Positions 11,402-47,732 of a stretch of DNA of 64,000 nt are shown here, piece by piece. The number at the start of each line of letters is the position of its first letter. The stretch's first letter is position 1. The notes beneath the pieces were generated by a model. That model made no database searches. It worked only from the letters and a program-made list of their open reading frames with translations, and was not told where the DNA came from. The stretch is from NCBI GenBank assembly GCA_000004985.1, contig GG738903.1, one strand, 5' to 3'. The position numbers and the translations under genes were made by a program. Origin of the DNA: Naegleria gruberi. Its lineage: Eukaryota.

Positions 11402-12487
11402 TTACTTCAATATTATTATTCGATGATTTTCCTTGTCTGCTATATAGAGCTCGCCAGTGATATGATTGATACACAATCCATTTGGATTTCCCTCACTGAA
11501 CTGGATTGATTTTAGGTAATTTCCCTCTGGTGAAAATATTAAAACTCTTCTATTAGTGATTCCATCACAAACAAGAATTTGTTTTGTGATCTTGTCTACT
11601 GTTACAGATGTTGGAAATTCAAACTCACCAACTCCATTACCTCTGCTACCAAATTTGAAAAATAATACCTTGCCTCTTGTATCTGTAACATACACTCTAT
11701 TATTATGTCTATCAGATATGATACATTGATTTTCATGATTGACTGTAATACCAAAAGGTGACTCCATTTTGAGCTTTCTTTCACATCTCTTTCCAAAAGC
11801 ATATAAAAAGTCACCATCCTTTGAAAGCACTTTAATTCTATGATTGGACGAATCTGATATGAATATATCACCATAATTTCCACCATTTTCAAAAGTATTC
11901 ACATGTATTCCACAAATTCCATTGAATTGATAGGGTCCATTGCCAGGTTTCAATCTTAGACCTCTCCTCCAAAGTTGTTCATGCTTTATCAAATCGTAAC
12001 AATAAATACATTCATCATCACCTGCAACTAATAAATTCCCATAAATATCTATTTCCATAAAAAGTGGTTTGAAAACCAAATCAATTTTATATTGAAATTC
12101 TCGTGTTGTTAAATCAAAGGCTTGAATCCTCCTATTGCCATGATCAGCAACTAGCAATATGTGATTTTCATGTGATATTTTTACATCGTATGGAAGTGAA
12201 AATTTGCCACATTCCGAATCCTCCCAAGAAGAAGCAATAATACCCAAACTATCTTCATCATAGGATGGCATTACCAATAATTTCGGAATGCAACCAACAA
12301 TCTTTAGAGAATCACTCAATCCACATTCCAAAAAATCTTTTGATTTTCTCATCCCTTTCCTCATATTTTCCGTTAATTTTCTCAAGAGCCAATCTAAATG
12401 ACTAAATTCCTCTTCCTCTTGATCAGTCTGCACATGATTAAAATCGTGTAGAATCAACACAAAGGTCACAGCTGATTCTCTTTTCAT
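11402..12487 (-). CDS. NHL-repeat six-bladed beta-propeller protein
   Basis: 361-aa ORF from a true ATG at 12487. Recurrent NHL signatures: ADHGNRRIQAFD, SSNHRIKVL, DRHNNRVYVTD, ITNRRVLIFSPEG, DKENHRIIIL. Confidence 0.75.
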   Translation of the reverse strand: MKRESAVTFVLILHDFNHVQTDQEEEEFSHLDWLLRKLTENMRKGMRKSKDFLECGLSDSLKIVGCIPKLLVMPSYDEDSLGIIASSWEDSECGKFSLPYDVKISHENHILLVADHGNRRIQAFDLTTREFQYKIDLVFKPLFMEIDIYGNLLVAGDDECIYCYDLIKHEQLWRRGLRLKPGNGPYQFNGICGIHVNTFENGGNYGDIFISDSSNHRIKVLSKDGDFLYAFGKRCERKLKMESPFGITVNHENQCIISDRHNNRVYVTDTRGKVLFFKFGSRGNGVGEFEFPTSVTVDKITKQILVCDGITNRRVLIFSPEGNYLKSIQFSEGNPNGLCINHITGELYIADKENHRIIILK

Positions 12488-20243: not shown

Positions 20244-20300
20244 GCCCGTCTAGCTCAGTCGGTAGAGCGCAAGGCTCTTAACCTTGTGGTGGGCGATTCC
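20244..20300 (+). pseudogene. tRNA-Lys(CUU) 5' fragment (acceptor 5' strand, D arm and anticodon arm intact; T arm decayed and 3' acceptor strand absent)
   Basis: GCCCGTC TA GCTCAGTCGGTAGAGC G CAAGG CTCTTAA CCTTG folds as acceptor 5' strand, D arm and anticodon arm with anticodon CUU. The sequence then degenerates (GGGCGATTCC with no complementary T stem), and no GACGGGC 3' acceptor strand follows. It lies in the divergent promoter between the P4H-like and F-box/LRR genes. Confidence 0.5.
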
Positions 20301-20417: not shown

Positions 20418-21722
20418 ATGAAGAAGCGAATGAGAGAAGAATTTGATCGTAATTCAATCATGATGGAAGGAAAGGAGTACGATAACTTATTCCCCGATGA
20501 TATTTGTGAAGAAATTATGCAATGGCTAGCTTGGAAAGAAGTTTTATTGAATTGTTGCCTAATTTCCAAGCAATGGTTTACAATTGCAAAATCAAGATAT
20601 AGAGCAAGTATTCAACTCACATATGGTCAAGAAAAATTATGGCTATGTTTTATTAAAGAGCAGCAGGAAGGAATTTCTCGTATATTTAATATTGGTGTTG
20701 ATTCTTTCAGAGTGGTGGGAAGTTACTTTATAGATAGCATTAATGCAGAGATTATTAGCAAATCGTTTCCTAATTTGAAGCGATTGGAAATTGGTGATAA
20801 CCAACAATTTGGAGATTGTGGAGCAGAGTCGATAAGTAAGATTAAGACTTTGACGAGCTTGAATGTTTTAGATTGTGGAATAACTTCAAAAGGAGCAGAA
20901 TTTATTGGATTGTTAAACGGGCTGACCTATCTTAATATTGGAAATAACAAGATTATGGATAGTGGAATGAAATTTATTGGAAAATTGAGTTCACTGAATG
21001 TTTTGCAGATTGGTAGTACTGAGATAACTAGTGAGAGTTTTAAATTGGTGGGCTGTATGAAGGGATTAACATCTCTTTCTATTTATTCAAATCCAGTCAC
21101 AATAGAAGATGCAAAATCCATAAGCTCAATACACGGCCTTAAATCTCTAAATATCAGCAATACAGGAATTTCTGTGGAAGGATTGAAATATTTAAGTGCA
21201 CTGACTTTACTAACGAACTTGTCTTTGGCCAAGAATAACATTACAAATGAAGGGCTTTTATCAATATCCCAAATGAAGCAAATAACTAAACTCTTTCTTC
21301 AACATAATGTAATAGACTGTGATGGAGCTCAATTATTAAGTACAATGACCAATTTGAGATTATTAAATATTAGTCAAACCAAAATCACCACTGAAGGAAT
21401 CAAGCACATTACCTCCTTGAAGAACATTACATCTTTGAATATTTCGATTAATCAGTTAAATGATGAAGCTTTAAAATTAGTTAGTTCAATGAATCAATTG
21501 ACCAATCTCAGTACACACAATAACAAGCTAACCAGCGAAGGCGCAAAACATATAAGCCAATTGAATAATCTAACAGAACTCAACATTTCCTCAAATCCTG
21601 TAAGAATCGAAGGTGCCAACTATTTAAATCAAATGACAACACTCAAAATAATTAATGTTTCAAACTGTAGAACTGGAATCTTCCAATGGAACAATAATAT
21701 TGATCTACAATTTGATGACTAG
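20418..21722 (+). CDS. F-box / leucine-rich-repeat protein (RNI-type LRRs)
   Basis: True ATG at 20418. The N-terminal LFPDDICEEIMQWLAWKEVLLNCCLISKQWFTIAKS is an F-box. About 12 LRR units of 24-25 aa follow, of the form LxxLxxLNISNTGISVEGLKYLSALTLLTNLSL. Confidence 0.7.
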   Translation: MKKRMREEFDRNSIMMEGKEYDNLFPDDICEEIMQWLAWKEVLLNCCLISKQWFTIAKSRYRASIQLTYGQEKLWLCFIKEQQEGISRIFNIGVDSFRVVGSYFIDSINAEIISKSFPNLKRLEIGDNQQFGDCGAESISKIKTLTSLNVLDCGITSKGAEFIGLLNGLTYLNIGNNKIMDSGMKFIGKLSSLNVLQIGSTEITSESFKLVGCMKGLTSLSIYSNPVTIEDAKSISSIHGLKSLNISNTGISVEGLKYLSALTLLTNLSLAKNNITNEGLLSISQMKQITKLFLQHNVIDCDGAQLLSTMTNLRLLNISQTKITTEGIKHITSLKNITSLNISINQLNDEALKLVSSMNQLTNLSTHNNKLTSEGAKHISQLNNLTELNISSNPVRIEGANYLNQMTTLKIINVSNCRTGIFQWNNNIDLQFDD

Positions 21723-21802
21723 CAGCACATGAACCATAAAGTTAAATAGTAAACAACTCTTGTTACCCATAAAGCAACCATCAAATTCACCAATCAAAAA
21801 AA

Positions 21803-23164
21803 ATGCCAAACATCAACATTCGACTTCGACAAGCCAAAAACTTGGCAGCAAAAGACCTTTCCAAAACGTCGGACCCATTGGTAATTTGCACAGTTAACAA
21901 CAAGAAATCATTCAAGACAGAACCAATCATGATGGACTGCAATCCAAACTGGGAAACGCACAAGAAACCAATTAAACATGAATTTACGGTGAATTTTGAC
22001 AAATTAACAGACGTGATACAATTACAAGTGGAAGACTATAACATCTTCTCTAAAAACAAACCAATAGGAAGTTGTCAAATACCTCTTCAATTTTTAGAAA
22101 AATCAAAACCAATGGAATTTACATTTGATTTACGTGATACGAAACAAGCAATTGCTGGACAATTGGTAGTTTTATTGGAAGCAATGGATTTTGGAATTGT
22201 TCCTTCAACAACAACAGTGCCTATGTATCCTCTTCCGACACAGCAACCATATTCTCCTCCTATTTCTGTTGTGCAGACACAGCAACCACAACAACCACAG
22301 CCACAGATACAGCCACAACAGCCACAACAGCAACTAGTTGGAAATTTACAAAGGAATGACAGTAGTCCAACACTTGCTGCACTCAGACATGGATCTTTCC
22401 TGACCAATAATAATACAGGTGTTGGTGGTCAATCACCTATTCAACAGCATCCATTGCAAACTTCTCAGAGTTTTATCATGCAAAAAACGACAATGGATCA
22501 ACAACAATCATCAATGATGATGGGCACAGGAAGTAATAGTGTATATGGAATGCCACTACCACAACAATATGTCAATAATGGAATGCAACAACAGCAACAA
22601 CAGCCATTGACACATTCCAATTCGTTCATTAATTATTCACAACAACCACAACAACAACAACCACCATCAATGTATAATAATTCTCAGCAAGGAGTTAATA
22701 TAATTTCACCAAGTGCTAATAATAATAATAATATTGGAACTCAATATACTCCTCCACAACAGTATAATCAACAGTATAATCAGGGAATTGTTAATAGTCC
22801 AGGAAGTATTTCATCTCCTTCGAATTTACAACCAATGAATAATTCATCATCTTATAATTTAATGAATAATTGTCAACTACAAGGAAATGTACAAGCTCAA
22901 CAAATTCAACAAAATGATAATAGTGTATCTACTCCAAGAAAGGCATTGCCTACATTACCAGTTAAACAAGGAAGTACAAGTCCTCAAACAATTGGTCAAC
23001 CAACAATTGATTCACAAATTCCAAAACCAAATGAGCTACCTCAATCGAATCAATGGACTGGTGTTGTCACTGATCAATACATTGATTATGTAGTTTCCCA
23101 ACTTCCAATTCCACTCTCCATACCAGAATATTACCAACGTTTTGTAAAGCCATTTAAAATATAA
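21803..23164 (+). CDS. C2-domain protein with a long Gln/Pro/Asn-rich low-complexity tail
   Basis: The N-terminal 120 aa (NIRLRQAKNLAAKDLSKTSDPLVICTV...IQLQVEDYN...IGSCQIPL) fit a C2 beta-sandwich. The remainder is poly-Q/P (QQPQQPQPQIQPQQPQQQ...). Confidence 0.65.
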   Translation: MPNINIRLRQAKNLAAKDLSKTSDPLVICTVNNKKSFKTEPIMMDCNPNWETHKKPIKHEFTVNFDKLTDVIQLQVEDYNIFSKNKPIGSCQIPLQFLEKSKPMEFTFDLRDTKQAIAGQLVVLLEAMDFGIVPSTTTVPMYPLPTQQPYSPPISVVQTQQPQQPQPQIQPQQPQQQLVGNLQRNDSSPTLAALRHGSFLTNNNTGVGGQSPIQQHPLQTSQSFIMQKTTMDQQQSSMMMGTGSNSVYGMPLPQQYVNNGMQQQQQQPLTHSNSFINYSQQPQQQQPPSMYNNSQQGVNIISPSANNNNNIGTQYTPPQQYNQQYNQGIVNSPGSISSPSNLQPMNNSSSYNLMNNCQLQGNVQAQQIQQNDNSVSTPRKALPTLPVKQGSTSPQTIGQPTIDSQIPKPNELPQSNQWTGVVTDQYIDYVVSQLPIPLSIPEYYQRFVKPFKI

Positions 23165-23207
23165 ATCCAAATCTGGACATTTGAATGATTTGAAACTTTT
23201 TAAAAAA

Positions 23208-24131
23208 ATGATAAAACGAACAATTGAAACTCTTGTTGATGAAGCAAATGTTGGATCTGAAACAAAAAAGACGAAACTCACTCATGAAGTTTTCAATGAT
23301 GATATTCTGGGTGAAATTTTATCCTTCCATGATGATTTTAAATTCATTGTATTGAATTGTGCATTAGTTTCGAAACAGTGGTTGAATGTCATATTGGAAA
23401 GATCAAGACTTTGTTTTCGATGTTATAGTAACAATTTGAAAGGTCGATTTTTACAAAATATTGCAACTTTGGTGGTGAGATTTGGAACTGTCGAATTTGA
23501 TTATCAAATACTTGGTCTGATGAAACGTTTATCACATCTTCGAGCTTGTTTTAATGATATTGGTGTTGAAGGGGCTAAACACATCAGTCAATTGAAACAA
23601 TTAACTTTTCTTGGAGTGAGTGGTAATTTTGTTGGAGTGGAAGGAGCCAAATACATTAGTCAATTGAAACAATTGACAAACCTAGATATTTGTTTTAATA
23701 ATATTGGAGATGAGGGAGCAAAACACATTAGTGAATTGAAACAATTGAAAAATCTCAAAATTGGAAACAATTACATTGGTGTTGAAGGTGCCAAATATAT
23801 TAGTCAACTGAAACATGTAACCAAGCTTTCTATTAGTTATAACAATGTCAGAGTTGAGGGGGTTAAATACATTAGTGAAATGAAACAATTAACTGATCTT
23901 AACATTGGTGAGAATGTAATTGGTGATGAAGGAGCTAAACATATTAAGAAATTGAATCAATTGACTAGATTAAGTATTTCAGGTGTTGAAATAAGTGAAG
24001 CAGGAGCTAAATACATTTGTGAAATGAAACAATTAACACAGCTCAATATTAAGAATAATAACATTGGCAAAATAGGCAAGGAATATATCTGTACTGAACT
24101 GAAATATTTAATTGATCTTGAAGTGTACTGA
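23208..24131 (+). CDS. F-box-like / leucine-rich-repeat protein (RNI-type LRRs)
   Basis: The first in-frame ATG is at 23208; the track start at 23181 is TTG. FNDDILGEILSFHDDFKFIVLNCALVSKQWLNVI is F-box-like. About 9 near-identical 24-aa repeats follow, ISQLKQLTxLxIxxNxIGxEGAKYI. Confidence 0.65.
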   Translation: MIKRTIETLVDEANVGSETKKTKLTHEVFNDDILGEILSFHDDFKFIVLNCALVSKQWLNVILERSRLCFRCYSNNLKGRFLQNIATLVVRFGTVEFDYQILGLMKRLSHLRACFNDIGVEGAKHISQLKQLTFLGVSGNFVGVEGAKYISQLKQLTNLDICFNNIGDEGAKHISELKQLKNLKIGNNYIGVEGAKYISQLKHVTKLSISYNNVRVEGVKYISEMKQLTDLNIGENVIGDEGAKHIKKLNQLTRLSISGVEISEAGAKYICEMKQLTQLNIKNNNIGKIGKEYICTELKYLIDLEVY

Positions 24132-24221
24132 AGTATAAAAAGAAAAAATTCATTTTCTTTCGTGCATTTGATTTGTACAAATACCATCCATGAAAGGTAA
24201 TCTTCTTGTCTATACTTAAAA

Positions 24222-25871
24222 TTATTTATTCCAATAACTTAATAATTCTTCCATTTTACCATACGAGTTGATGCTAACCTTCCTTAATTTGGCAAAAGTT
24301 GGATTTGTTTGCAAAGCTTTCACACATGCTTTTGATGCAGAAACGGAATGTGCATCAATTTTTCTCAAATTTACCAAATTGGTACACTTGGAAACAAGGT
24401 TTTCATACAAATTGATGCCATCCATATTGCAACATTGACAAATTAATTCCTTCAAATTGGAAAAGACTGGTGAATCGAAAATGATTTCGAATAAAGATTC
24501 TAAACAAGCCAAATCAGAAATATCCAAATATTCCAAGTTAGATAAGGTAGGAGCACTCAAAAAGGTTTCATAGGAACTCTTCAATAAGTTCTTGTTTTCA
24601 CAATATCTAGCACTTGAATGAGAGATAGTGAGCCTCTTTAGATTTGGGCAATGATAAGAGAGTGAAGGAAAGGTTGAAATGTAGGTACTTTTCAAATTCA
24701 AATCAGTGAGTGAGCTTTGAGAGTTTGGTGGACATTGTACAACCTCTGAATTTTCTTGTCTGTAGTGTGCAGTAGGACCTCCAAAAATGTTTGCATTTCC
24801 CCAATTAAAGTTTTCAGCTTTGAGTGTTGTGAGTTTTGGTAAACTTGGAGAAACAATCAAATTTACAAATTCACTATTTGGCATGGAACAATAGGAAAGA
24901 TCAAGTCTAGTAATATTGGTTAAACTTGTCCAAAAGTTTGGGTAAAGAGTCAATCTATGATTTCTAATACCCAAATATTCGAGATTGACCTTATCTTTCA
25001 ACAATTCGGTTAGTCCATAGTCTTCATTTCCAGATTGAGAATGTTGTGCTAATTCTAAATGAGTGAGTTGATTCAAATATTTGGATTCTGAAATGATTTG
25101 CAAAAATGATTTTGGAAAGTCGTGGCTTGTCAAGTCTAATTTTTTAACACTGGACATGAAACTGCTATTGAGTAATTCCTTTGCCTCCTTTTCTGTAAAC
25201 TTTTTCACATTGGCCAAGTTTAATTTTGTCAAATTCTTCATTGAACATTTCTTTAAATTCTTCACACTTTGAATTCCCATATTATTGGATGCTAAATTCA
25301 ATTTTGTCAAATTCTCCAACTTTTTACAATTAGAAAGTACTTGAAATGTATCAACACCAGCAGAAAACAATGATAATGAAGTGACATTCTTGATAAATGG
25401 TCCATCTAACAAACTGGTAATCTCTTCCTTTCCAACTTTGACTGACTTTCGTCTACTATAACTTGCAGTACCTAATCTCACTTTAAAACTAAGTCTTTTC
25501 AAGGTTTCTCTCCACATCTTGGATACCAATTGACAGGAATTCATCAGAACTGGTATATCCAAGAATTGATAAATGTGAAATAAATTATCCGAATTTAATT
25601 GATCGGACGAAACTCTTCTTCTATGCACATCCAACTCCTTCAAGAATTCGTTAATATTACCAACAAATTCATCAATCATACAATTATTATTTACAAAATA
25701 ATGATGACCAACTAATTTCACCTTTTTAGAAAGTGACAGTAATTGATCATTGACATTGGTCATTTCATTAAATAAAGTACCATCAATATTTTCATCAACA
25801 TGTTCATCAACATTTGCAAGTTGTTGATCTGATGTTTCTTCGTGTTTTCTCTTCTTGCTTTGTTTTGGCAT
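24222..25871 (-). CDS. F-box / LRR protein (FBXL/AMN1-like)
   Basis: 549-aa ORF from a true ATG at 25871. F-box LFHIYQFLDIPVLMNSCQLVSKMWRETL. Irregular LRRs with N/L/C-rich consensus follow (LTKLNLASNNMGIQSV, LTHLELAQH..., LEYLDISDLACL). Confidence 0.6.
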   Translation of the reverse strand: MPKQSKKRKHEETSDQQLANVDEHVDENIDGTLFNEMTNVNDQLLSLSKKVKLVGHHYFVNNNCMIDEFVGNINEFLKELDVHRRRVSSDQLNSDNLFHIYQFLDIPVLMNSCQLVSKMWRETLKRLSFKVRLGTASYSRRKSVKVGKEEITSLLDGPFIKNVTSLSLFSAGVDTFQVLSNCKKLENLTKLNLASNNMGIQSVKNLKKCSMKNLTKLNLANVKKFTEKEAKELLNSSFMSSVKKLDLTSHDFPKSFLQIISESKYLNQLTHLELAQHSQSGNEDYGLTELLKDKVNLEYLGIRNHRLTLYPNFWTSLTNITRLDLSYCSMPNSEFVNLIVSPSLPKLTTLKAENFNWGNANIFGGPTAHYRQENSEVVQCPPNSQSSLTDLNLKSTYISTFPSLSYHCPNLKRLTISHSSARYCENKNLLKSSYETFLSAPTLSNLEYLDISDLACLESLFEIIFDSPVFSNLKELICQCCNMDGINLYENLVSKCTNLVNLRKIDAHSVSASKACVKALQTNPTFAKLRKVSINSYGKMEELLSYWNK

Positions 25872-26192: not shown

Positions 26193-28328
26193 ATGAAGAA
26201 AACTTCTTCCTCGCTAGTGAGGAGTTTTTCTTCCGTGTCTGTTGTGATGAAAAATAAGACAATGCAATCATCAAATTTATCAGCATTGATCAATAATTGT
26301 CAAGTACTATCATCCACGAGGAAAAATGCTAGATTTTATAGTGTAAAGCAAACTCTTGGAGGAAATGAAGCCTCCACTCTTAGACAACAAGTTGCTTCTA
26401 CAACATCGTCATCATCTTATGCTCAACAACATCAAGCACCACCAGTGATTGAGCAAGTTGTTGCCGAAGAATCAACAACAACAACAACATCCGAACCAAT
26501 TATTGAAGAAAAACCACTCTTCTCCAAGAAGGAAATTATGATTCTTGAAAGCGAAAAAACAGCACTTGGACACTTGTTGAAAATTATCGAAAACGTTGAA
26601 GGAAGTGAAGAGGATATTGATCTTTTAAGAAAAAGTATTAATCAATTGGAGGAACATTTCTTGATGGTTATTGTTGGTGAATTTAATGCAGGTAAATCAT
26701 CATTCATTAATGCCATGCTCGGAGATCGTTATTTGAGAGAAGGTATTACTCCAACAACAGCTCATCTTCATGTTATTCGTCATGGAGGTGATTCTAATCA
26801 AAAGTTTGACGAGAGAAATCAACTTGTAAATATGGAACTTCCACTCAAGTGGCTTAAAGGTATTAGTGTTGTTGATACACCAGGTACTAATGCCATTATC
26901 AAGGAACATCAAACAATTACAGAAACTTTTGTACCAAGAGCTGATTTAATCATCTTTTTGACCAGTGCAGAAAGACCATTCTCTGAGAGTGAACACACCT
27001 TCCTTGAAATGATTAGAAAGTGGGGTAAGAAGGTTGTTGTCTGTATTAACAAGTATGATTTACTTCAAAATGAAAAGGAACAGGACGAAGTGGAAGTATT
27101 TGTTCGTGATGGTATTATTCGTTTATTGGGCTTTGAACCTAAAATCTTTTGTGTCAGTGCTAGGAGTGCAATGGATTTCAAACAATCATCAAGAATTTCT
27201 TCATTCTTGGCTCCTGAAGAAAGAGAACTTGCCGAAAAACAAAAAAAGACCAAGTTGGCTGAAAATTGGCTTGATTTGGAAAAGTATGTTTTGGACACTC
27301 TGAATTCTATTGAACGTGCCAAGTTGAAATTCCTTTCTCCACTTGGTGTTGCTCAAAATTTATCTGAAAAGTACTTGACAACCAATATTGAAGAAAGATT
27401 AAAGGTATTGAAAGAAGATAAGAAAACTATGGAAATTATTGAAGAACAACTTCAAGTATTTTATAATGATATGAAACAAGATTTTGAATTGCAACAAGCC
27501 AAATTGGAAAATATTTTCCATGAACTTTCTGAACGTGGTACAGGCTTTTACGATAACTTTGTCAATTTGTCTAATATTTCAAGTTTGATCAAGTCCAAGA
27601 TTGTTGCTGAAGAATTCCAAACTCAAGTTATTGCCAATACTGCCACTCAAATTGAAAATCATGTCTCTGAAGTTATTGATTGGATAATTGACAGAAAATA
27701 CAGACAATGGAAAGCTGTGACAGATTTTGCCAATAAGAGAGCTAGAATTTCACTCCATGAAGATAAATTAGTTGGAACTCTTTCAAGTGATTTCCAATTT
27801 AACAGAAAGGAACTTTTACTCAAAATTGGTACCACAGCTGAAAATGCTGTTAGAAGCTATGATAAGGAACATAATGATACTGAAAAGCTCTTCTCTGAAA
27901 TTGCCTCTGGTCTCAAGGCTACAGCTGCTGTAGAAGTCAGCGCTATTACAATTGGTGTTTCTTCTGCACTCTTGATGCCAACTGCTGCTATGGCAGGTGC
28001 TGGTGTTGTTGGTGCCTTAATGGTTGGTGCTGGTGGTCTCTACGCACTCCCATACAAGAGAGCTACAATGAGAAAGAACTTTATTCGTGAAGTTAACAAG
28101 CTTAAGGAAGTTTTAAAGCAAAGAATGAGGGAAGAATTTGAACGAGAATTATTGTCAAGTATTGATAGTATTAAGAATTCAATTACTCCTTACTCTAGAT
28201 TTGTTAAAGCTGAACATGAAAAATTCTCAACTCAAAAGGAAAGACTCATCGAACTTCAAAAGGTTATTAATCAAATCAGAAAGGAAATTGAAAGCTTACA
28301 AGAGGCTGATATTACTAAAAAGATGTAA
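26193..28328 (+). CDS. dynamin-family large GTPase of the mitofusin / FZO type
   Basis: G1 GEFNAGKSSFINAML, G3 DTPG, G4 NKYD. An S/R-rich N-terminal presequence-like segment. A C-terminal hydrophobic segment (ITIGVSSALLMPTAAMAGAGVVGALMVGAGGLYALPY) is followed by a heptad-repeat tail, the classic Fzo/mitofusin or FZL architecture. Confidence 0.75.
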   Translation: MKKTSSSLVRSFSSVSVVMKNKTMQSSNLSALINNCQVLSSTRKNARFYSVKQTLGGNEASTLRQQVASTTSSSSYAQQHQAPPVIEQVVAEESTTTTTSEPIIEEKPLFSKKEIMILESEKTALGHLLKIIENVEGSEEDIDLLRKSINQLEEHFLMVIVGEFNAGKSSFINAMLGDRYLREGITPTTAHLHVIRHGGDSNQKFDERNQLVNMELPLKWLKGISVVDTPGTNAIIKEHQTITETFVPRADLIIFLTSAERPFSESEHTFLEMIRKWGKKVVVCINKYDLLQNEKEQDEVEVFVRDGIIRLLGFEPKIFCVSARSAMDFKQSSRISSFLAPEERELAEKQKKTKLAENWLDLEKYVLDTLNSIERAKLKFLSPLGVAQNLSEKYLTTNIEERLKVLKEDKKTMEIIEEQLQVFYNDMKQDFELQQAKLENIFHELSERGTGFYDNFVNLSNISSLIKSKIVAEEFQTQVIANTATQIENHVSEVIDWIIDRKYRQWKAVTDFANKRARISLHEDKLVGTLSSDFQFNRKELLLKIGTTAENAVRSYDKEHNDTEKLFSEIASGLKATAAVEVSAITIGVSSALLMPTAAMAGAGVVGALMVGAGGLYALPYKRATMRKNFIREVNKLKEVLKQRMREEFERELLSSIDSIKNSITPYSRFVKAEHEKFSTQKERLIELQKVINQIRKEIESLQEADITKKM

Positions 28329-28422
28329 ATTTAAAAGTATATTAATCTAAAGCAACTATTTTGTGTTAATCACTTTATTCTTTATCACAAAATATATTGA
28401 ATGTTTCAAATCAAAAACAAGT

Positions 28423-28493
28423 TGCATTAGCCGGGAGTCGAACCCGGGTCACCAGCTTGGAAGGCTGGTATGATACCGTTACACTACTAATGC
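28423..28493 (-). tRNA. tRNA-Gly (anticodon UCC)
   Basis: The reverse complement, GCATTAG TA GTGT AACGGTATC ATAC CCAGC CTTCCAA GCTGG TGA CCCGG GTTCGACT CCCGG CTAATGC, forms a complete cloverleaf. The T loop is GTTCGACT and the anticodon TCC sits in loop CTTCCAA. The 3' flank on the minus strand is a T5 run (a Pol III terminator). No encoded CCA. Confidence 0.9.
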
Positions 28494-28520
28494 TTCTCAT
28501 TACATTTCTTAAAATATGAT

Positions 28521-28614
28521 ACTAAACGAGTCAATTATAGCATTTTAAGCATCACTCAAGAGCAAATCAAACACAATCAATTATGCTTAAAATGCTATAA
28601 TTGACTCGTTTAGT
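28521..28614. repeat. perfect 32-bp inverted repeat (hairpin) with a 30-nt loop, about 28 bp upstream of tRNA-Gly
   Basis: 28521..28552 (ACTAAACGAGTCAATTATAGCATTTTAAGCAT) is the exact reverse complement of 28583..28614. The loop is CACTCAAGAGCAAATCAAACACAATCAATT. Confidence 0.9.
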
Positions 28615-28620
28615 GATATG

Positions 28621-29366
28621 ATTCTTGTTTTGTGGGCCAACCAATGCTAAAAATGAGCGTAAACGTTCAGTGAGCCTGAATTGATTTACAATTCTGTTCC
28701 TAACCAAAACAACAAATATTTGGTTTATTAATTATATTCTCACATAGATGCTTGTTATTTGATCGAACGGTCTTTTATCTTTCTGTGTTGGAAGAAACAA
28801 TCAATAAAGTTTTGTGTAATTTTTTAGCTAGTGGTTTGTAAACATTAAAAAAACGAGTTTATTTTGGACATTGCTCGATATCTACTTAATGAATCGTATC
28901 AGATTAAATATCACAATGTTATTTAACAAAATTATTATTGTATTGTTTTGTTGGTTTTATTAAAACTGTTGTTATTCTTAAAATGTTAGCAGATAGATAA
29001 GTTTCGGAAATCACTTACAATGGCAACATTTCTTCACTCCACACAATAAAATACTGTGATTACATGCGATCAAAGGTTGAATTTTGGAATATCATTAAGT
29101 AACTAAAAAGTTTGCTCCCAAAATAACATCCGAATAGTGAGCTAATTTACTTTGGGAAAAAATTACTGTTCAACCGATGGTCCAAGATCTATGAATTGAA
29201 TTATTGAAACAAAGATTGTCCTCAGTTTTATGCACAGTGATGTCTACAACGAAAAAACGATGGTAGTATATTAATGTTTTGAAGGTATACAGACATTGAA
29301 CAATACTGTTGGTCTGTATTTTATCATATTTTTTAGGGTTGGTTGGCCCACAATATACTAAGAATA
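28621..29366. mobile_element. candidate non-autonomous DNA element (MITE-like), about 745 bp, with imperfect terminal inverted repeats of about 35 bp
   Basis: Left end ATTCTTGTTTTGTGGGCCAACCAATGCTAAAAAT (28621..28654). The reverse complement of the right end 29327..29366 reads ATTCTTAGTATATTGTGGGCCAACCAACCCTAAAAAAT. The 14-bp core TGTGGGCCAACCAA is perfect (28631..28644 versus 29339..29352). No ORF longer than 60 aa lies inside. The right end overlaps the last 3 codons of the adjacent minus-strand gene. Confidence 0.4.
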
Positions 29367-30323
29367 TATAAGTACTCCAAATTGTCCACTATCACATACA
29401 TAAAGTAGACCACTTAATGGATCAATAATAATTCCAAAACTCTTATAATTTCCACTAACAGATTTAACTTTTGATAAATCCTCCCTTCTAACCACAACAA
29501 GTCTATAACCACCATTATCTGATACATAAATCAAATCAGAGGCCTTCTCATAGAATATAGAATAGGCAAAATTCATTCTAAAAGATGATTTTCGAATAGA
29601 ATTCCATTTTCCTTGCTGTTTTTCAAATAATTCTAAACAAGAATTATGACTCATTAATATTTCATTCTCAGAAAAGCAATGAATACCAAAACCACCACCC
29701 TCAATTTTCCCAATATCATCATCTAAATATTGTAAATGATCTCCATGTTCACGATCTAATATCATAACTGATTTTTCATAATCCACAACATAGAGTTGGG
29801 ATCCCATAACATCCAATCCCCAGATATTATAGTAAGTTTCTTTAGATTTCCAAACAAGAAGTGGATTCTTCCTCATTATATCAGAAACCTTAATCTTTAC
29901 AACATATGGATCAGTAGATGCATAAATATATTCCTCATCCTTCTCCTTAATCAATTTCAAACAATTAAAACAAGTAATTTCCTCAAACTCAACTTCAAAC
30001 AAGGCCTTCCTTCCAATTGACTTGTTTTCATACTCTTCAGCTGTCTCTGCTCTCGGAAAAACACTCAGTGCCGAACCATTCGTTACAATAAATCTATAAT
30101 AATCATTGGAGAGAACAATATCAAAACAATTCGGACCAACATGCCATGCAGAATAATAACCACTAACATTCAGTGATGAAAATTCGAGAGAGTATCGTTT
30201 GGTGGGGATGATATTAATTTTATATTTTAGGAGGTTAATTAAATTATTATTATCGTGATGATCATCATCAGTGGAAGTAAATTGGGACGGAAGAAAATCT
30301 ATCAGCTCAACCTTTACAGACAT
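29358..30323 (-). CDS. NHL/SMP-30-like beta-propeller protein
   Basis: 321-aa ORF from a true ATG at 30323. The C-terminal blades carry NHL-like signatures (LIYVSDNGGYRLVVV, LLYVCDSGQFGVLIY, SQLYVVDYEKSVMILD). Confidence 0.5.
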   Translation of the reverse strand: MSVKVELIDFLPSQFTSTDDDHHDNNNLINLLKYKINIIPTKRYSLEFSSLNVSGYYSAWHVGPNCFDIVLSNDYYRFIVTNGSALSVFPRAETAEEYENKSIGRKALFEVEFEEITCFNCLKLIKEKDEEYIYASTDPYVVKIKVSDIMRKNPLLVWKSKETYYNIWGLDVMGSQLYVVDYEKSVMILDREHGDHLQYLDDDIGKIEGGGFGIHCFSENEILMSHNSCLELFEKQQGKWNSIRKSSFRMNFAYSIFYEKASDLIYVSDNGGYRLVVVRREDLSKVKSVSGNYKSFGIIIDPLSGLLYVCDSGQFGVLIYS

Positions 30324-46130: not shown

Positions 46131-47732
46131 ATGGGCGTTCAACAAAGCTCATCGTCATCAGGAGGTGGTGTTGGTGTTGGTCTAGATCATTTACTTCATT
46201 CCATAACCATCAATTCTGGTCAATATCTAGCAGGTGATGATGATGAAAAAATTGTCGGACAAATTCAAACCACTAGACAAACACGTTCTCTTTTCAATAC
46301 ACGAATTAATCGAGTAAATTCATCATCTAAACCTGTTGGTAGTAATGGTAAAATAGACAAGTCAAATGCCACAACTCCACCCATTGGAATGTTAAATTCT
46401 GAAGCGATGGAAAGAGTTAGAGATAAATTAGTGAATGCATCTTCAATGTGGTTGAGTATTGATGATTCGAATCGTGAACAATCAAGTTTACAAAAACGAA
46501 TTTTGAATGGTTCAGGAACAACTTCGATATTACATTTTAGAAGAAGAGCTGCTTCGTCACCTGAGGAACGAGAGAAATTGATAATGACATTGGCAATGTA
46601 TTTGAGTCATAAGGAAGAAATGTTGACTTCGTATATGGCATCTGACTGGATGTCATCTGTTAGAATTATTGAGAAAATGTTAATTCCGAGTGAATATTCA
46701 CAGTTTATAGAGTTGGCTGTTCAAGTTATTGATGAGAATTTTGAATTGCCAAGTGAAGATTCAGAATCTCTAAAGAAGAAAAAGAATCATAATAGAAATA
46801 GGTCAGGAGGAATTTTGTCATCTGTTTCACATCATCAACATAGACGTCAAGCTGTGCCTAAAAATCAAAATTTGACGCCTCAACCATCTACTGTAGAAAC
46901 ACAATATGTAAATATCAAACTAATGATTGTTCCTCAGCAACTAAAATACTCGACGCTTGTAGAGGCATGTTTTCCAGTTTTGGAAAGCTTTTTAATTGAT
47001 CCAATGGATGGAATTGCAGATAGTTTTGCAGTTTCACTTGTTGTAGATAATTGGTTCCTCTATTTTGAACCTGACACTAACTTGATTATACCAAAGAAAT
47101 TATACTGTACAGCCAAATCATTTGTGGATGAGCAAATTCCCACATTTGTACGAGTTCAACACAAATCCAATCAGATTCAATCCCTACTTGCATCATGTGT
47201 GAGTAAGTGGAACAATTCAATGTATTTTAAAGCATCCAAGACAGATGATATGCACACCATGTCCATGGAAGAACATGTAGAACCTTCTCTTGAAGATTCA
47301 TTCAGTGATAGATCGACTGCCAGCAGTTTGAATCAAAAATATTATGGAAATTCGTTTGATTTTATTGAAGACTTTTTTGTAAACTATCTCAAATTTGATT
47401 TTATCAACACACCAACTGCCAAATATTTACAATCATTTTTACAAAATGTACAAAAATTCGGATTTAGTGAATTAATGTTTAATGCAAGTGATGACCTCTC
47501 ATCCAAATATGGAGAGGAATTGAGATTGGCCAAGGATGGAAAGCTCAGCTTTTTAGACTCTGGTGAGTTGGATTTTTTTATGGATAAGCTTTCCTTGGCT
47601 ATTCAAGAGAATGAACCAATTTTCGAAACAATACCGAGCGATTGTTTGGAGAATAATCCATTCGTTGCACTGAATATCTTGAATGGAGCATTCAACATAC
47701 AATATATAGACGAGGATGAGTATGAATTATAA
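46131..47732 (+). CDS. hypothetical protein (533 aa) with N-terminal MGxxxS
   Basis: Uninterrupted ORF from a true ATG at 46131; no recognisable domain. Confidence 0.5.
   Translation: MGVQQSSSSSGGGVGVGLDHLLHSITINSGQYLAGDDDEKIVGQIQTTRQTRSLFNTRINRVNSSSKPVGSNGKIDKSNATTPPIGMLNSEAMERVRDKLVNASSMWLSIDDSNREQSSLQKRILNGSGTTSILHFRRRAASSPEEREKLIMTLAMYLSHKEEMLTSYMASDWMSSVRIIEKMLIPSEYSQFIELAVQVIDENFELPSEDSESLKKKKNHNRNRSGGILSSVSHHQHRRQAVPKNQNLTPQPSTVETQYVNIKLMIVPQQLKYSTLVEACFPVLESFLIDPMDGIADSFAVSLVVDNWFLYFEPDTNLIIPKKLYCTAKSFVDEQIPTFVRVQHKSNQIQSLLASCVSKWNNSMYFKASKTDDMHTMSMEEHVEPSLEDSFSDRSTASSLNQKYYGNSFDFIEDFFVNYLKFDFINTPTAKYLQSFLQNVQKFGFSELMFNASDDLSSKYGEELRLAKDGKLSFLDSGELDFFMDKLSLAIQENEPIFETIPSDCLENNPFVALNILNGAFNIQYIDEDEYEL

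What the first reader, a model, noticed from the sequence alone, without database searches (positions are those of the whole stretch)
28510..29366. Hairpin plus MITE-like TIR element immediately upstream of tRNA-Gly(UCC)
Within 200 bp of the 5' end of the tRNA-Gly gene lie two palindromic structures. One is a perfect 32-bp-stem hairpin (28521..28614). The other is a roughly 745-bp ORF-less segment bounded by imperfect terminal inverted repeats of about 35 bp, with a perfect 14-bp core TGTGGGCCAACCAA. The GC-rich core is conspicuous in AT-rich flanks. tRNA genes are preferred insertion targets for mobile elements in several compact eukaryotic genomes. This looks like a non-autonomous DNA transposon or foldback element that landed at a tRNA gene. 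The right TIR overlaps the stop region of the neighbouring propeller gene.
Basis: seen in the sequence. Interest (0 to 1): 0.55.

Follow-up and report, generated by a model that had tools for sequence, protein, structure and literature searches.

The report
Tiny palindromic insertion beside a tRNA gene
In a Naegleria gruberi intergenic spacer, a 94-bp perfect palindrome flanked by a short duplicated target sequence looks like a miniature transposon inserted just upstream of a glycine tRNA gene, while the larger "745-bp MITE" next to it is a weak inverted repeat with no insertion signature; overall this is fairly ordinary.

Summary
Both structures are at the stated coordinates. The window is Naegleria gruberi nuclear DNA. 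The hairpin (28521-28614, 32/32-bp stem, 30-nt loop) is far beyond chance. That is a target-site-duplication signature. The hairpin is therefore best read as a 94-bp MITE- or foldback-type insertion, 20-27 bp upstream of an intact tRNA-Gly(UCC). The larger inverted repeat (28616-28653 / 29330-29369, 14-bp perfect GC-rich core) is real but only modestly above chance. It has no target-site duplication at any plausible boundary. Its outer right end lies in the native last codons of an NHL-like gene, and its interior has no ORF, protein-domain remnant or Rfam RNA. Whether it is a transposon is unproven. Neither structure recurs in the 64-kb window, two other Naegleria loci, IMG/VR, JGI metagenomes or prokaryotic genomes. 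The N. gruberi genome could not be reached, so copy number, the decisive test, remains open. No tRNA targeting can be claimed from one case. Interest is low to moderate.

The parts
28423..28493 (-). tRNA-Gly(UCC) gene. It appears intact and has a T5 run just downstream on its own strand.
   Evidence: ARAGORN. Rfam tRNA, 69.3 bits. T-run read from the sequence.
28513..28520 (.). Left copy of the putative target-site duplication (AATATGAT), at -20 to -27 relative to the tRNA 5' end.
   Evidence: Sequence. Flank-repeat statistics.
28521..28552 (.). Left arm (terminal inverted repeat) of the 94-bp palindromic element.
   Evidence: (pair I1).
28553..28582 (.). 30-nt spacer (loop) of the palindromic element.
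28583..28614 (.). Right arm (terminal inverted repeat) of the palindromic element, 32/32 complementary to the left arm.
28615..28622 (.). Right copy of the putative target-site duplication (GATATGAT). It matches the left copy at 7 of 8 positions, or as a perfect 7-mer ATATGAT after one extra base. It is also the outer end of the left arm of the large inverted repeat.
28616..28653 (.). Left arm of the large imperfect inverted repeat. The perfect core TGTGGGCCAACCAA is at 28631-28644.
28654..29329 (.). 676-bp interior. It has 29% GC, no ORF, no protein-domain remnant in any of six frames, no Rfam family above threshold and no internal repeat structure.
29330..29369 (.). Right arm of the large inverted repeat, with the core at 29339-29352. 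Positions 29358-29369 are the stop codon and last three codons (I-Y-S) of the neighbouring gene.
29358..30323 (-). Lineage-restricted 321-aa ORF, NHL-repeat-like at its C-terminus. Its 3' end abuts and overlaps the right arm.

Best explanation
The spacer contains two separate things. (1) The 94-bp perfect palindrome at 28521-28614 is a miniature terminal-inverted-repeat element of MITE or foldback type. It consists of two 32-bp terminal inverted repeats around a 30-nt spacer and has no coding capacity. I infer that a cut-and-paste transposase supplied in trans inserted it with a 7-8-bp staggered cut. The cut was in the sequence ATATGAT, 20-27 bp upstream of tRNA-Gly(UCC), and repair of the stagger produced the flanking duplication. 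The insertion pushed the older upstream DNA 102 bp further away but left the proximal 27 bp, including a TATA-like ATATTTTAA, next to the tRNA gene. The perfect arms point to a recent event. (2) The insertion landed at the outer edge of an older pair of roughly 40-bp imperfect inverted repeats that enclose 676 bp of featureless AT-rich DNA. This pair is most likely a decayed relic, either of an old mobile element or of a local inverted duplication of the 3' end of the neighbouring gene. It has no demonstrable mobility or function. Shown here: the inverted repeats, the flanking duplication, the lack of coding capacity, the position relative to the tRNA, and the absence of both structures at the orthologous position in two other Naegleria. 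Inferred: transposition, a transposase acting in trans, recency, and membership of a family.
For: The window is N. gruberi: the flanking GTPase gene is 100% identical to an N. gruberi protein. The arms are a perfect 32/32 match; the hairpin's inverted-repeat score is 32 against a shuffle maximum of 17, and its DNA fold has z = -10. The immediate flanks AATATGAT and GATATGAT occur by chance at 0.17% of window positions (7 of 8 matching) or 0.07% (perfect 7-mer with 1-nt slop). The element has no coding capacity. It is not a cloning-host or vector artefact, since there is no match in E. coli genomes or plasmids. The gene order is lineage-specific: downstream of the orthologous GTPase gene, N. 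lovaniensis and a metagenomic Naegleria sp. have different genes and neither the tRNA-Gly nor these repeats. The large inverted repeat is above chance but lacks a target-site duplication. Its outermost 12 nt on the right are native coding sequence. Its interior shows no domain remnants or RNA families.
Against: No second copy of either structure was found anywhere I could search: the 64-kb window, 27 kb of other Naegleria DNA, IMG/VR, JGI metagenomes and prokaryotic genomes. A transposon family needs several copies. Published transposable-element content of N. gruberi is low: 0.28% in bioRxiv 10.64898/2026.06.24.734286, and 5.1% total repeats in PMC6125883. The flanking duplication has one mismatch or one extra base although the 64 nt of arms carry no mismatch, which is slightly odd under neutral decay. 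The element's ends (ACTAAACG...) do not resemble the terminal motif I recall for hAT elements, the best-known 8-bp-duplication superfamily. No transposase, integrase or reverse transcriptase is encoded in the window.
Confidence: 0.5

Rival explanations
1. First reader's model. The roughly 745-bp segment (28616/28621-29366/29369) is itself a non-autonomous DNA transposon (MITE) bounded by about 35-40-bp imperfect terminal inverted repeats, and it landed next to the tRNA gene.
For: The inverted repeat is above chance and has a conspicuous GC-rich 14-bp perfect core. The segment has no ORF and its size is in the MITE range. The spacer is long for this gene-dense window.
Against: There is no target-site duplication at the 28616/29369, 28630/29353 or 28631/29352 boundaries. 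The best-conserved part of the repeat is internal rather than terminal. The outer right end is the native C-terminal codons and stop of the NHL-like gene. There are no subterminal repeats or internal symmetry. No second copy was found in any reachable data.
Confidence: 0.15
2. The 722-bp segment 28631-29352 is a solo LTR, or another relic of a retroelement that integrates with a tyrosine recombinase or integrase. It begins with TG and ends with CA, carries short terminal inverted repeats, and lies upstream of a tRNA gene, as Ty3 and DGLT-A insertions do.
For: The TG...CA termini and terminal inverted repeat can be read. The size is typical of an LTR. DIRS and Gypsy elements are reported in the sister species N. 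lovaniensis (PMC6125883). DIRS-type elements make no target-site duplication (my own knowledge).
Against: There is no 4-6-bp target-site duplication (TGTTT on the left, ATATA on the right). Similarity between the arms continues outside the TG/CA boundaries. No reverse-transcriptase or integrase remnants lie in the segment or nearby. No other copy was found.
Confidence: 0.08
3. The structures are local and non-mobile. The two GGCCCACAA-containing arms are paired protein-binding or regulatory sites, for example an upstream element for RNA polymerase III or a boundary element at the tRNA gene. Alternatively they are the product of a one-off inverted duplication of the gene's 3' end. The hairpin would be a cruciform-forming palindrome made by replication template switching.
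For: Every structure is single-copy in all data searched. Before the hairpin insertion the left core would have sat 35-49 bp upstream of the tRNA, followed by a TATA-like sequence (inferred). The right arm includes native gene sequence, which fits a duplication origin. The interval after the GTPase gene differs in all four heteroloboseans compared, so it is a rearrangement hot spot.
Against: The motif is absent upstream of the window's other tRNA gene and everywhere else in the 64 kb. The right-hand copy points into the antisense strand of a coding region where no RNA gene is detected. Template switching does not predict a 7-8-bp direct duplication flanking the palindrome.
Confidence: 0.17
4. 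The hairpin is a gene for a hairpin RNA, a precursor of miRNA-like or siRNA-like small RNAs.
For: As RNA it forms a perfect 32-bp stem. It gives generic hits to plant and animal miRNA-precursor models (MIR6288, 56.5 bits, E = 2e-10).
Against: All the miRNA hits are below the families' gathering scores (56.5 against 74, 34 against 88) and come from unrelated taxa, so they reflect only the hairpin shape. There is no evidence of a promoter and no conservation in other Naegleria. Perfect stems are more typical of young inverted-repeat elements than of miRNA genes (my own knowledge). This reading can coexist with a MITE origin.
Confidence: 0.05
5. The palindrome is an assembly or cloning artefact.
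For: The assembly is an older Sanger draft (my own knowledge). Perfect palindromes sometimes arise from chimeric clones.
Against: The palindrome is internal to a 304-kb scaffold (contig length). It is short and has clean flanks with a direct duplication. It has no similarity to E. coli or plasmid DNA.
Confidence: 0.03

Closest known systems
Very short palindromic MITEs such as human MADE1 (80 bp: two 37-bp terminal inverted repeats of Hsmar1 around 6 bp). Comparison from my own knowledge.
   Same: The element is almost entirely two long terminal inverted repeats around a short spacer. It has no coding capacity, is flanked by a target duplication, and folds into a near-perfect hairpin.
   Different: MADE1 has a TA duplication, thousands of copies and a known autonomous partner. 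Here the duplication is 7-8 bp, only one copy has been seen, and no partner is known.
DNA-transposon superfamilies that make 7-8-bp target duplications (hAT, P, Merlin, Novosib, some MULEs; Dada makes 6-7 bp). From my own knowledge.
   Same: The length of the flanking duplication. A 32-bp terminal inverted repeat resembles the 31-bp repeat of the P element.
   Different: The terminal sequence ACTAAACG does not match the hAT-type YARNG ends. No transposase is available for comparison, so no superfamily can be assigned. Dada elements insert inside small-RNA genes, not upstream of them.
Retrotransposons that target tRNA genes in compact genomes (yeast Ty3 and Ty1; Dictyostelium TRE5, TRE3 and DGLT-A). 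From my own knowledge.
   Same: The position: an insertion a few tens of bp upstream of a tRNA gene (here -20 to -27), in a gene-dense genome where tRNA flanks are safe sites.
   Different: Those are retroelements that encode reverse transcriptase and carry LTRs or poly(A) tails. This is a 94-bp palindrome. One case cannot demonstrate targeting.
Solo LTRs
   Same: The 722-bp core-to-core segment starts with TG, ends with CA and has terminal inverted repeats.
   Different: It has no 4-6-bp target duplication, the arm similarity extends beyond TG/CA, and no related retroelement has been seen.

Membership tests
MITE / foldback element (94-bp hairpin) | Terminal inverted repeats at both ends | tested here: met
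   32/32 nt perfect arms.
MITE / foldback element (94-bp hairpin) | Target-site duplication directly flanking the ends | tested here: met
   AATATGAT / GATATGAT match at 7 of 8 positions. Chance is 0.07-0.17% at random window positions.
MITE / foldback element (94-bp hairpin) | Small size and no coding capacity | tested here: met
   94 bp; no ORF.
MITE / foldback element (94-bp hairpin) | Multiple dispersed copies in the host genome | not testable with these tools
There is no second copy in the window, other Naegleria loci, IMG/VR, JGI metagenomes or prokaryotic genomes.
MITE / foldback element (94-bp hairpin) | An autonomous element with the same ends, or an empty-site allele | not testable with these tools
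   No transposase is encoded in the window. No other N. gruberi strain data are available.
MITE (745-754-bp unit) | Terminal inverted repeats | tested here: met
   35 of 41 gapped columns match, with a 14-bp perfect core. The best-conserved part is not at the termini.
MITE (745-754-bp unit) | Target-site duplication | tested here: not met
   No flanking direct repeat at boundaries 28616/29369, 28630/29353 or 28631/29352 (sequence).
MITE (745-754-bp unit) | Ends are foreign to the flanking host sequence | tested here: not met
   Positions 29358-29369 of the right arm are the native stop and last three codons. The ORF's C-terminus aligns co-linearly with the C-terminus of an NHL paralogue.
MITE (745-754-bp unit) | Multiple copies in the genome | not testable with these tools
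   Single-copy in everything reachable.
Solo LTR | TG...CA termini together with a 4-6-bp target duplication | tested here: not met
   The TG/CA termini are present (28631 and 29352), but the flanks are TGTTT and ATATA.
tRNA-gene-targeting retrotransposons (Ty3, TRE, DGLT-A) | A retroelement body (reverse transcriptase, integrase, LTR or poly(A)) and recurrent insertion at a fixed distance from tRNA genes | tested here: not met
   No reverse-transcriptase or integrase remnants. The other tRNA gene in the window and one in N. lovaniensis have no such insertion.
Rfam miRNA precursor families (MIR6288, mir-4703, MIR5380) | Score at or above the family's gathering threshold | tested here: not met
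   56.5 against 74, 34 against 88 and 27 against 150 bits.

The most novel reading that the evidence does not exclude
The 94-bp palindrome belongs to an undescribed Naegleria family of miniature DNA transposons that preferentially insert about 20-30 bp upstream of tRNA genes. This would be a cut-and-paste counterpart of the tRNA-targeted retrotransposons of yeast and Dictyostelium. Its perfect hairpins might feed the amoeba's RNAi pathway.
Probability: 0.06. Interest if true: 0.6.

Novelty: new member of a known kind. Interest (0 to 1): 0.25.

Why it matters
If genome-wide copies confirm it, this would be a recently active miniature DNA transposon in a genome reported to be very poor in mobile elements. 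Its insertion polymorphism could mark N. gruberi strains. Only if many copies sit at the same distance from tRNA genes would it become interesting as polymerase III-directed targeting by a DNA transposon. As it stands, it is a small, plausible transposon insertion next to a decayed inverted repeat in a rearrangement-prone spacer. It is useful for annotation and not surprising.

Tried and rejected
- **Dictyostelid origin and DUSE promoter.** I first guessed the window was dictyostelid and that CCCACAA was the DUSE small-RNA promoter element. I dropped this when the flanking gene proved 100% identical to an N. gruberi protein. The motif is also absent upstream of tRNA-Asn and elsewhere in the window.
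- **Reaching the N. gruberi assembly.** Four look-ups with the look-up of encoding contigs all returned 'not on record', so a genome-wide copy count was impossible.
- **Exact-pattern scans.** I scanned for the hairpin arm and the degenerate arm core in IMG/VR, JGI metagenomes and prokaryotic genomes. Nothing was found except three 17-mer hits in IMG/VR. The one I inspected (L003) shows no flank similarity, and the other two were not inspected.
- **Local BLASTN.** A search of the spacer against the window and the N. lovaniensis and Naegleria sp. loci gave only self and arm hits.
- **RNA families.** Rfam at a permissive E-value gave only generic hairpin matches to miRNA models below threshold and a chance-level snoR100 hit.
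- **Protein-domain remnants.** A six-frame Pfam scan of the spacer found no transposase or reverse-transcriptase remnant. Pfam on 27 long window ORFs found no mobile-element protein. One sub-threshold Plavaka match lies inside an alpha/beta-hydrolase and was dismissed.
- **Contamination and vector check.** There is no match against E. coli genomes or plasmids.
- **Structure of the neighbouring ORF.** An AlphaFold model, made to judge whether the propeller is truncated, had pLDDT 32.5 and was unusable. A PDB sequence search gave nothing significant.
- **Literature.** I found no described Naegleria MITE or tRNA-targeted element.
- **Searches deliberately not run.** I ran no further search on the 46-aa spurious ORF across the arm. 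No N. gruberi-grade DNA appears to be in those collections: the P0001 cluster has no Logan, ENA or JGI members.

Full report
**Source of the window.** The window is nuclear DNA of Naegleria gruberi. The ORF at 26193-28328 is 100% identical to an N. gruberi predicted protein on a 304-kb scaffold. It is 88% identical to N. lovaniensis and 67% to Willaertia magna. The window has about 33% GC and is gene-dense.

**Check of the observation.**
- tRNA-Gly(UCC) occupies 28423-28493 on the minus strand (Rfam 69.3 bits). Both structures therefore lie upstream of its 5' end.
- The hairpin has arms at 28521-28552 and 28583-28614, complementary at 32 of 32 positions, with a 30-nt spacer. As single-stranded DNA it folds at -31.6 kcal/mol, z = -10.
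- In my own inverted-repeat scan the hairpin scores 32. The best score in 100 dinucleotide shuffles of the window is 17.
- The larger inverted repeat is weaker. Ungapped it is 38 nt at 79% identity, with a perfect 14-mer at 28631-28644 and 29339-29352.
- Gapped, it shows 35 matches in 41 columns between 28616-28653 and 29330-29369. The score is 44, against local shuffles of 24 ± 3 with a maximum of 40.
- Window-wide it scores 18 against a shuffle maximum of 17. Unrelated real inverted repeats in the window score 17 and 16. The repeat is real but not overwhelming.
- The enclosed DNA has no ORF above 46 aa.
- The right arm overlaps the stop codon and the last three codons of ORF 29358-30323(-).

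**A flanking duplication around the hairpin.** AATATGAT (28513-28520) precedes it and GATATGAT (28615-22) follows it. I measured how often a 94-bp segment at a random position in this window shows such flanks. Seven of eight matches occur at 0.17% of positions, and a perfect 7-mer allowing one base of slop occurs at 0.07%. Perfect terminal inverted repeats, a flanking duplication, small size and no coding capacity are the structural definition of a MITE or foldback-type insertion.
- Removing the 102 bp restores ...TTCTTAAAATATGATTCTTGTTTTGTGGG.... The target was 20-27 bp upstream of the mature tRNA 5' end.
- The 27 bp nearest the tRNA gene, including a TATA-like ATATTTTAA, stayed next to it (read).
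- The tRNA gene looks intact and is followed by a T5 run.

**The 745-754-bp unit.** Four observations argue against reading this unit as a transposon.
- No flanking direct repeat exists at any plausible boundary: 28616/29369, 28630/29353 or 28631/29352.
- The best-conserved part of the arms is the internal GC-rich core plus CTAAAAA, not the termini.
- The outermost 12 nt of the right arm are native gene sequence. The 321-aa ORF has no homologue outside N. gruberi and no Pfam hit. Its residues 212-319 nevertheless align with residues 245-359 of a genuine NHL-repeat propeller encoded at 11402-12487 (E = 9e-4; Pfam NHL). Both proteins end two residues after the last repeat motif (...GVLIYS* and ...RIIILK*). 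The stop codon and the last codons were therefore not supplied by an inserted element.
- The interior is ordinary non-coding DNA. It has 29% GC, no internal repeats, no domain remnant in six frames and no Rfam family.

The segment between the two cores begins with TG and ends with CA like an LTR, but it lacks a 4-6-bp duplication. The left arm's outer end coincides with the hairpin's right-hand duplication copy. The palindrome therefore inserted at the edge of a pre-existing left arm.

**Copy number.** In everything that was reachable, both structures are single-copy:
- the 64-kb window;
- 27 kb of N. lovaniensis and a metagenomic Naegleria sp.;
- IMG/VR, which gave only three 17-mer matches; the one inspected shows no flank similarity;
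- JGI metagenomes;
- prokaryotic genomes;
- E. coli genomes and plasmids, which also rules out a cloning artefact.

The window encodes no transposase, integrase or reverse transcriptase. Published estimates put transposable elements at 0.28% of the N. gruberi genome (bioRxiv 10.64898/2026.06.24.734286) and total repeats at 5.1% (PMC6125883). I found no paper describing Naegleria MITEs or tRNA-targeted elements.

**Genomic context.** The interval downstream of the GTPase gene differs in every heterolobosean compared.
- N. gruberi has tRNA-Gly(-).
- N. lovaniensis has an ankyrin-kinase gene.
- The metagenomic Naegleria sp. has a gene whose nearest window relative lies 18 kb away in the opposite orientation, at 46131-47732 (41% identity).
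- Willaertia has tRNA-Leu(+).

The spacer is therefore a rearrangement-prone, lineage-specific region. Both transposon insertions and local duplications are expected in such places. Long inverted repeats are otherwise rare in Naegleria DNA: none of 18 nt or more occurs in 22 kb of N. lovaniensis.

**Alternatives considered.**
- A regulatory reading of the GGCCCACAA cores, as a polymerase III upstream element, is weakened in two ways. The motif is absent from the other tRNA gene and from the rest of the window. The right-hand copy also points into the antisense strand of a coding region where no RNA gene is detectable.
- The miRNA-model hits on the hairpin are all below gathering scores and only reflect its shape.
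- One insertion cannot establish tRNA targeting.

**Verdict.** The hairpin is most likely a miniature terminal-inverted-repeat transposon insertion with a target-site duplication (about 0.5-0.6). The larger unit is a real but weak inverted repeat whose status as a transposon is unsupported (about 0.15). I rate novelty as a probable new member of a known kind, and interest as low to moderate. A single BLASTN against the N. gruberi genome would settle the question.

Noticed in passing
window 20244-20295 (+): Rfam calls a tRNA here at 36.7 bits, but ARAGORN does not. The sequence is the 5' two-thirds of a tRNA-Lys(CUU)-like gene: acceptor 5' strand, D arm and anticodon arm. The T arm and the 3' acceptor strand are missing, and no matching 3' part occurs elsewhere in the window. 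It looks like a truncated tRNA pseudogene or fragment between two genes.
   Followed up: partly
window 26193-28328 (+): Apart from heterolobosean orthologues, the dynamin-family GTPase next to the tRNA has its best matches (about 42% identity over about 84% of its length) in Chloroflexi (Caldilineaceae, Litorilinea) and in many metagenomic bacterial proteins. This suggests a bacterial-type dynamin-like protein, possibly acquired by ancient horizontal transfer into Heterolobosea.
   Followed up: no
window 28329-28500 compared with L001:12152-12388, L002:3323-3401 and L006:8392-8690: The gene order immediately downstream of the GTPase gene differs in N. gruberi, N. lovaniensis, a metagenomic Naegleria sp. 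and Willaertia magna. In the metagenomic species the neighbouring gene resembles window 46131-47732 (41% identity), which lies 18 kb away on the opposite strand in N. gruberi. This hints at an inversion or rearrangement with a breakpoint in this spacer. Willaertia has a different tRNA (Leu-UAA) in the equivalent position.
   Followed up: partly
window 29358-30323 (-): This 321-aa ORF has no homologue outside N. gruberi among 5.8 billion proteins and no Pfam domain. Its C-terminal third is weakly NHL-repeat-like and resembles the NHL propeller gene at 11402-12487. It is a fast-evolving, lineage-restricted paralogue.
   Followed up: partly
L006:11500-14391 (Willaertia magna contig JBEGDK010000005.1): An extremely AT-rich 3-kb stretch is packed with more than 100 inverted-repeat pairs built around a recurring palindrome GTATAAATTTATAC. 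It may be a repeat array or a cluster of mobile elements.
   Followed up: no
window 20418-25871: A cluster of adjacent leucine-rich-repeat genes (LRR_6 type) lies at 20418-21722, 23181-24131 and 24222-25871, interrupted by a C2-domain gene. It looks like a locally expanded family.
   Followed up: no
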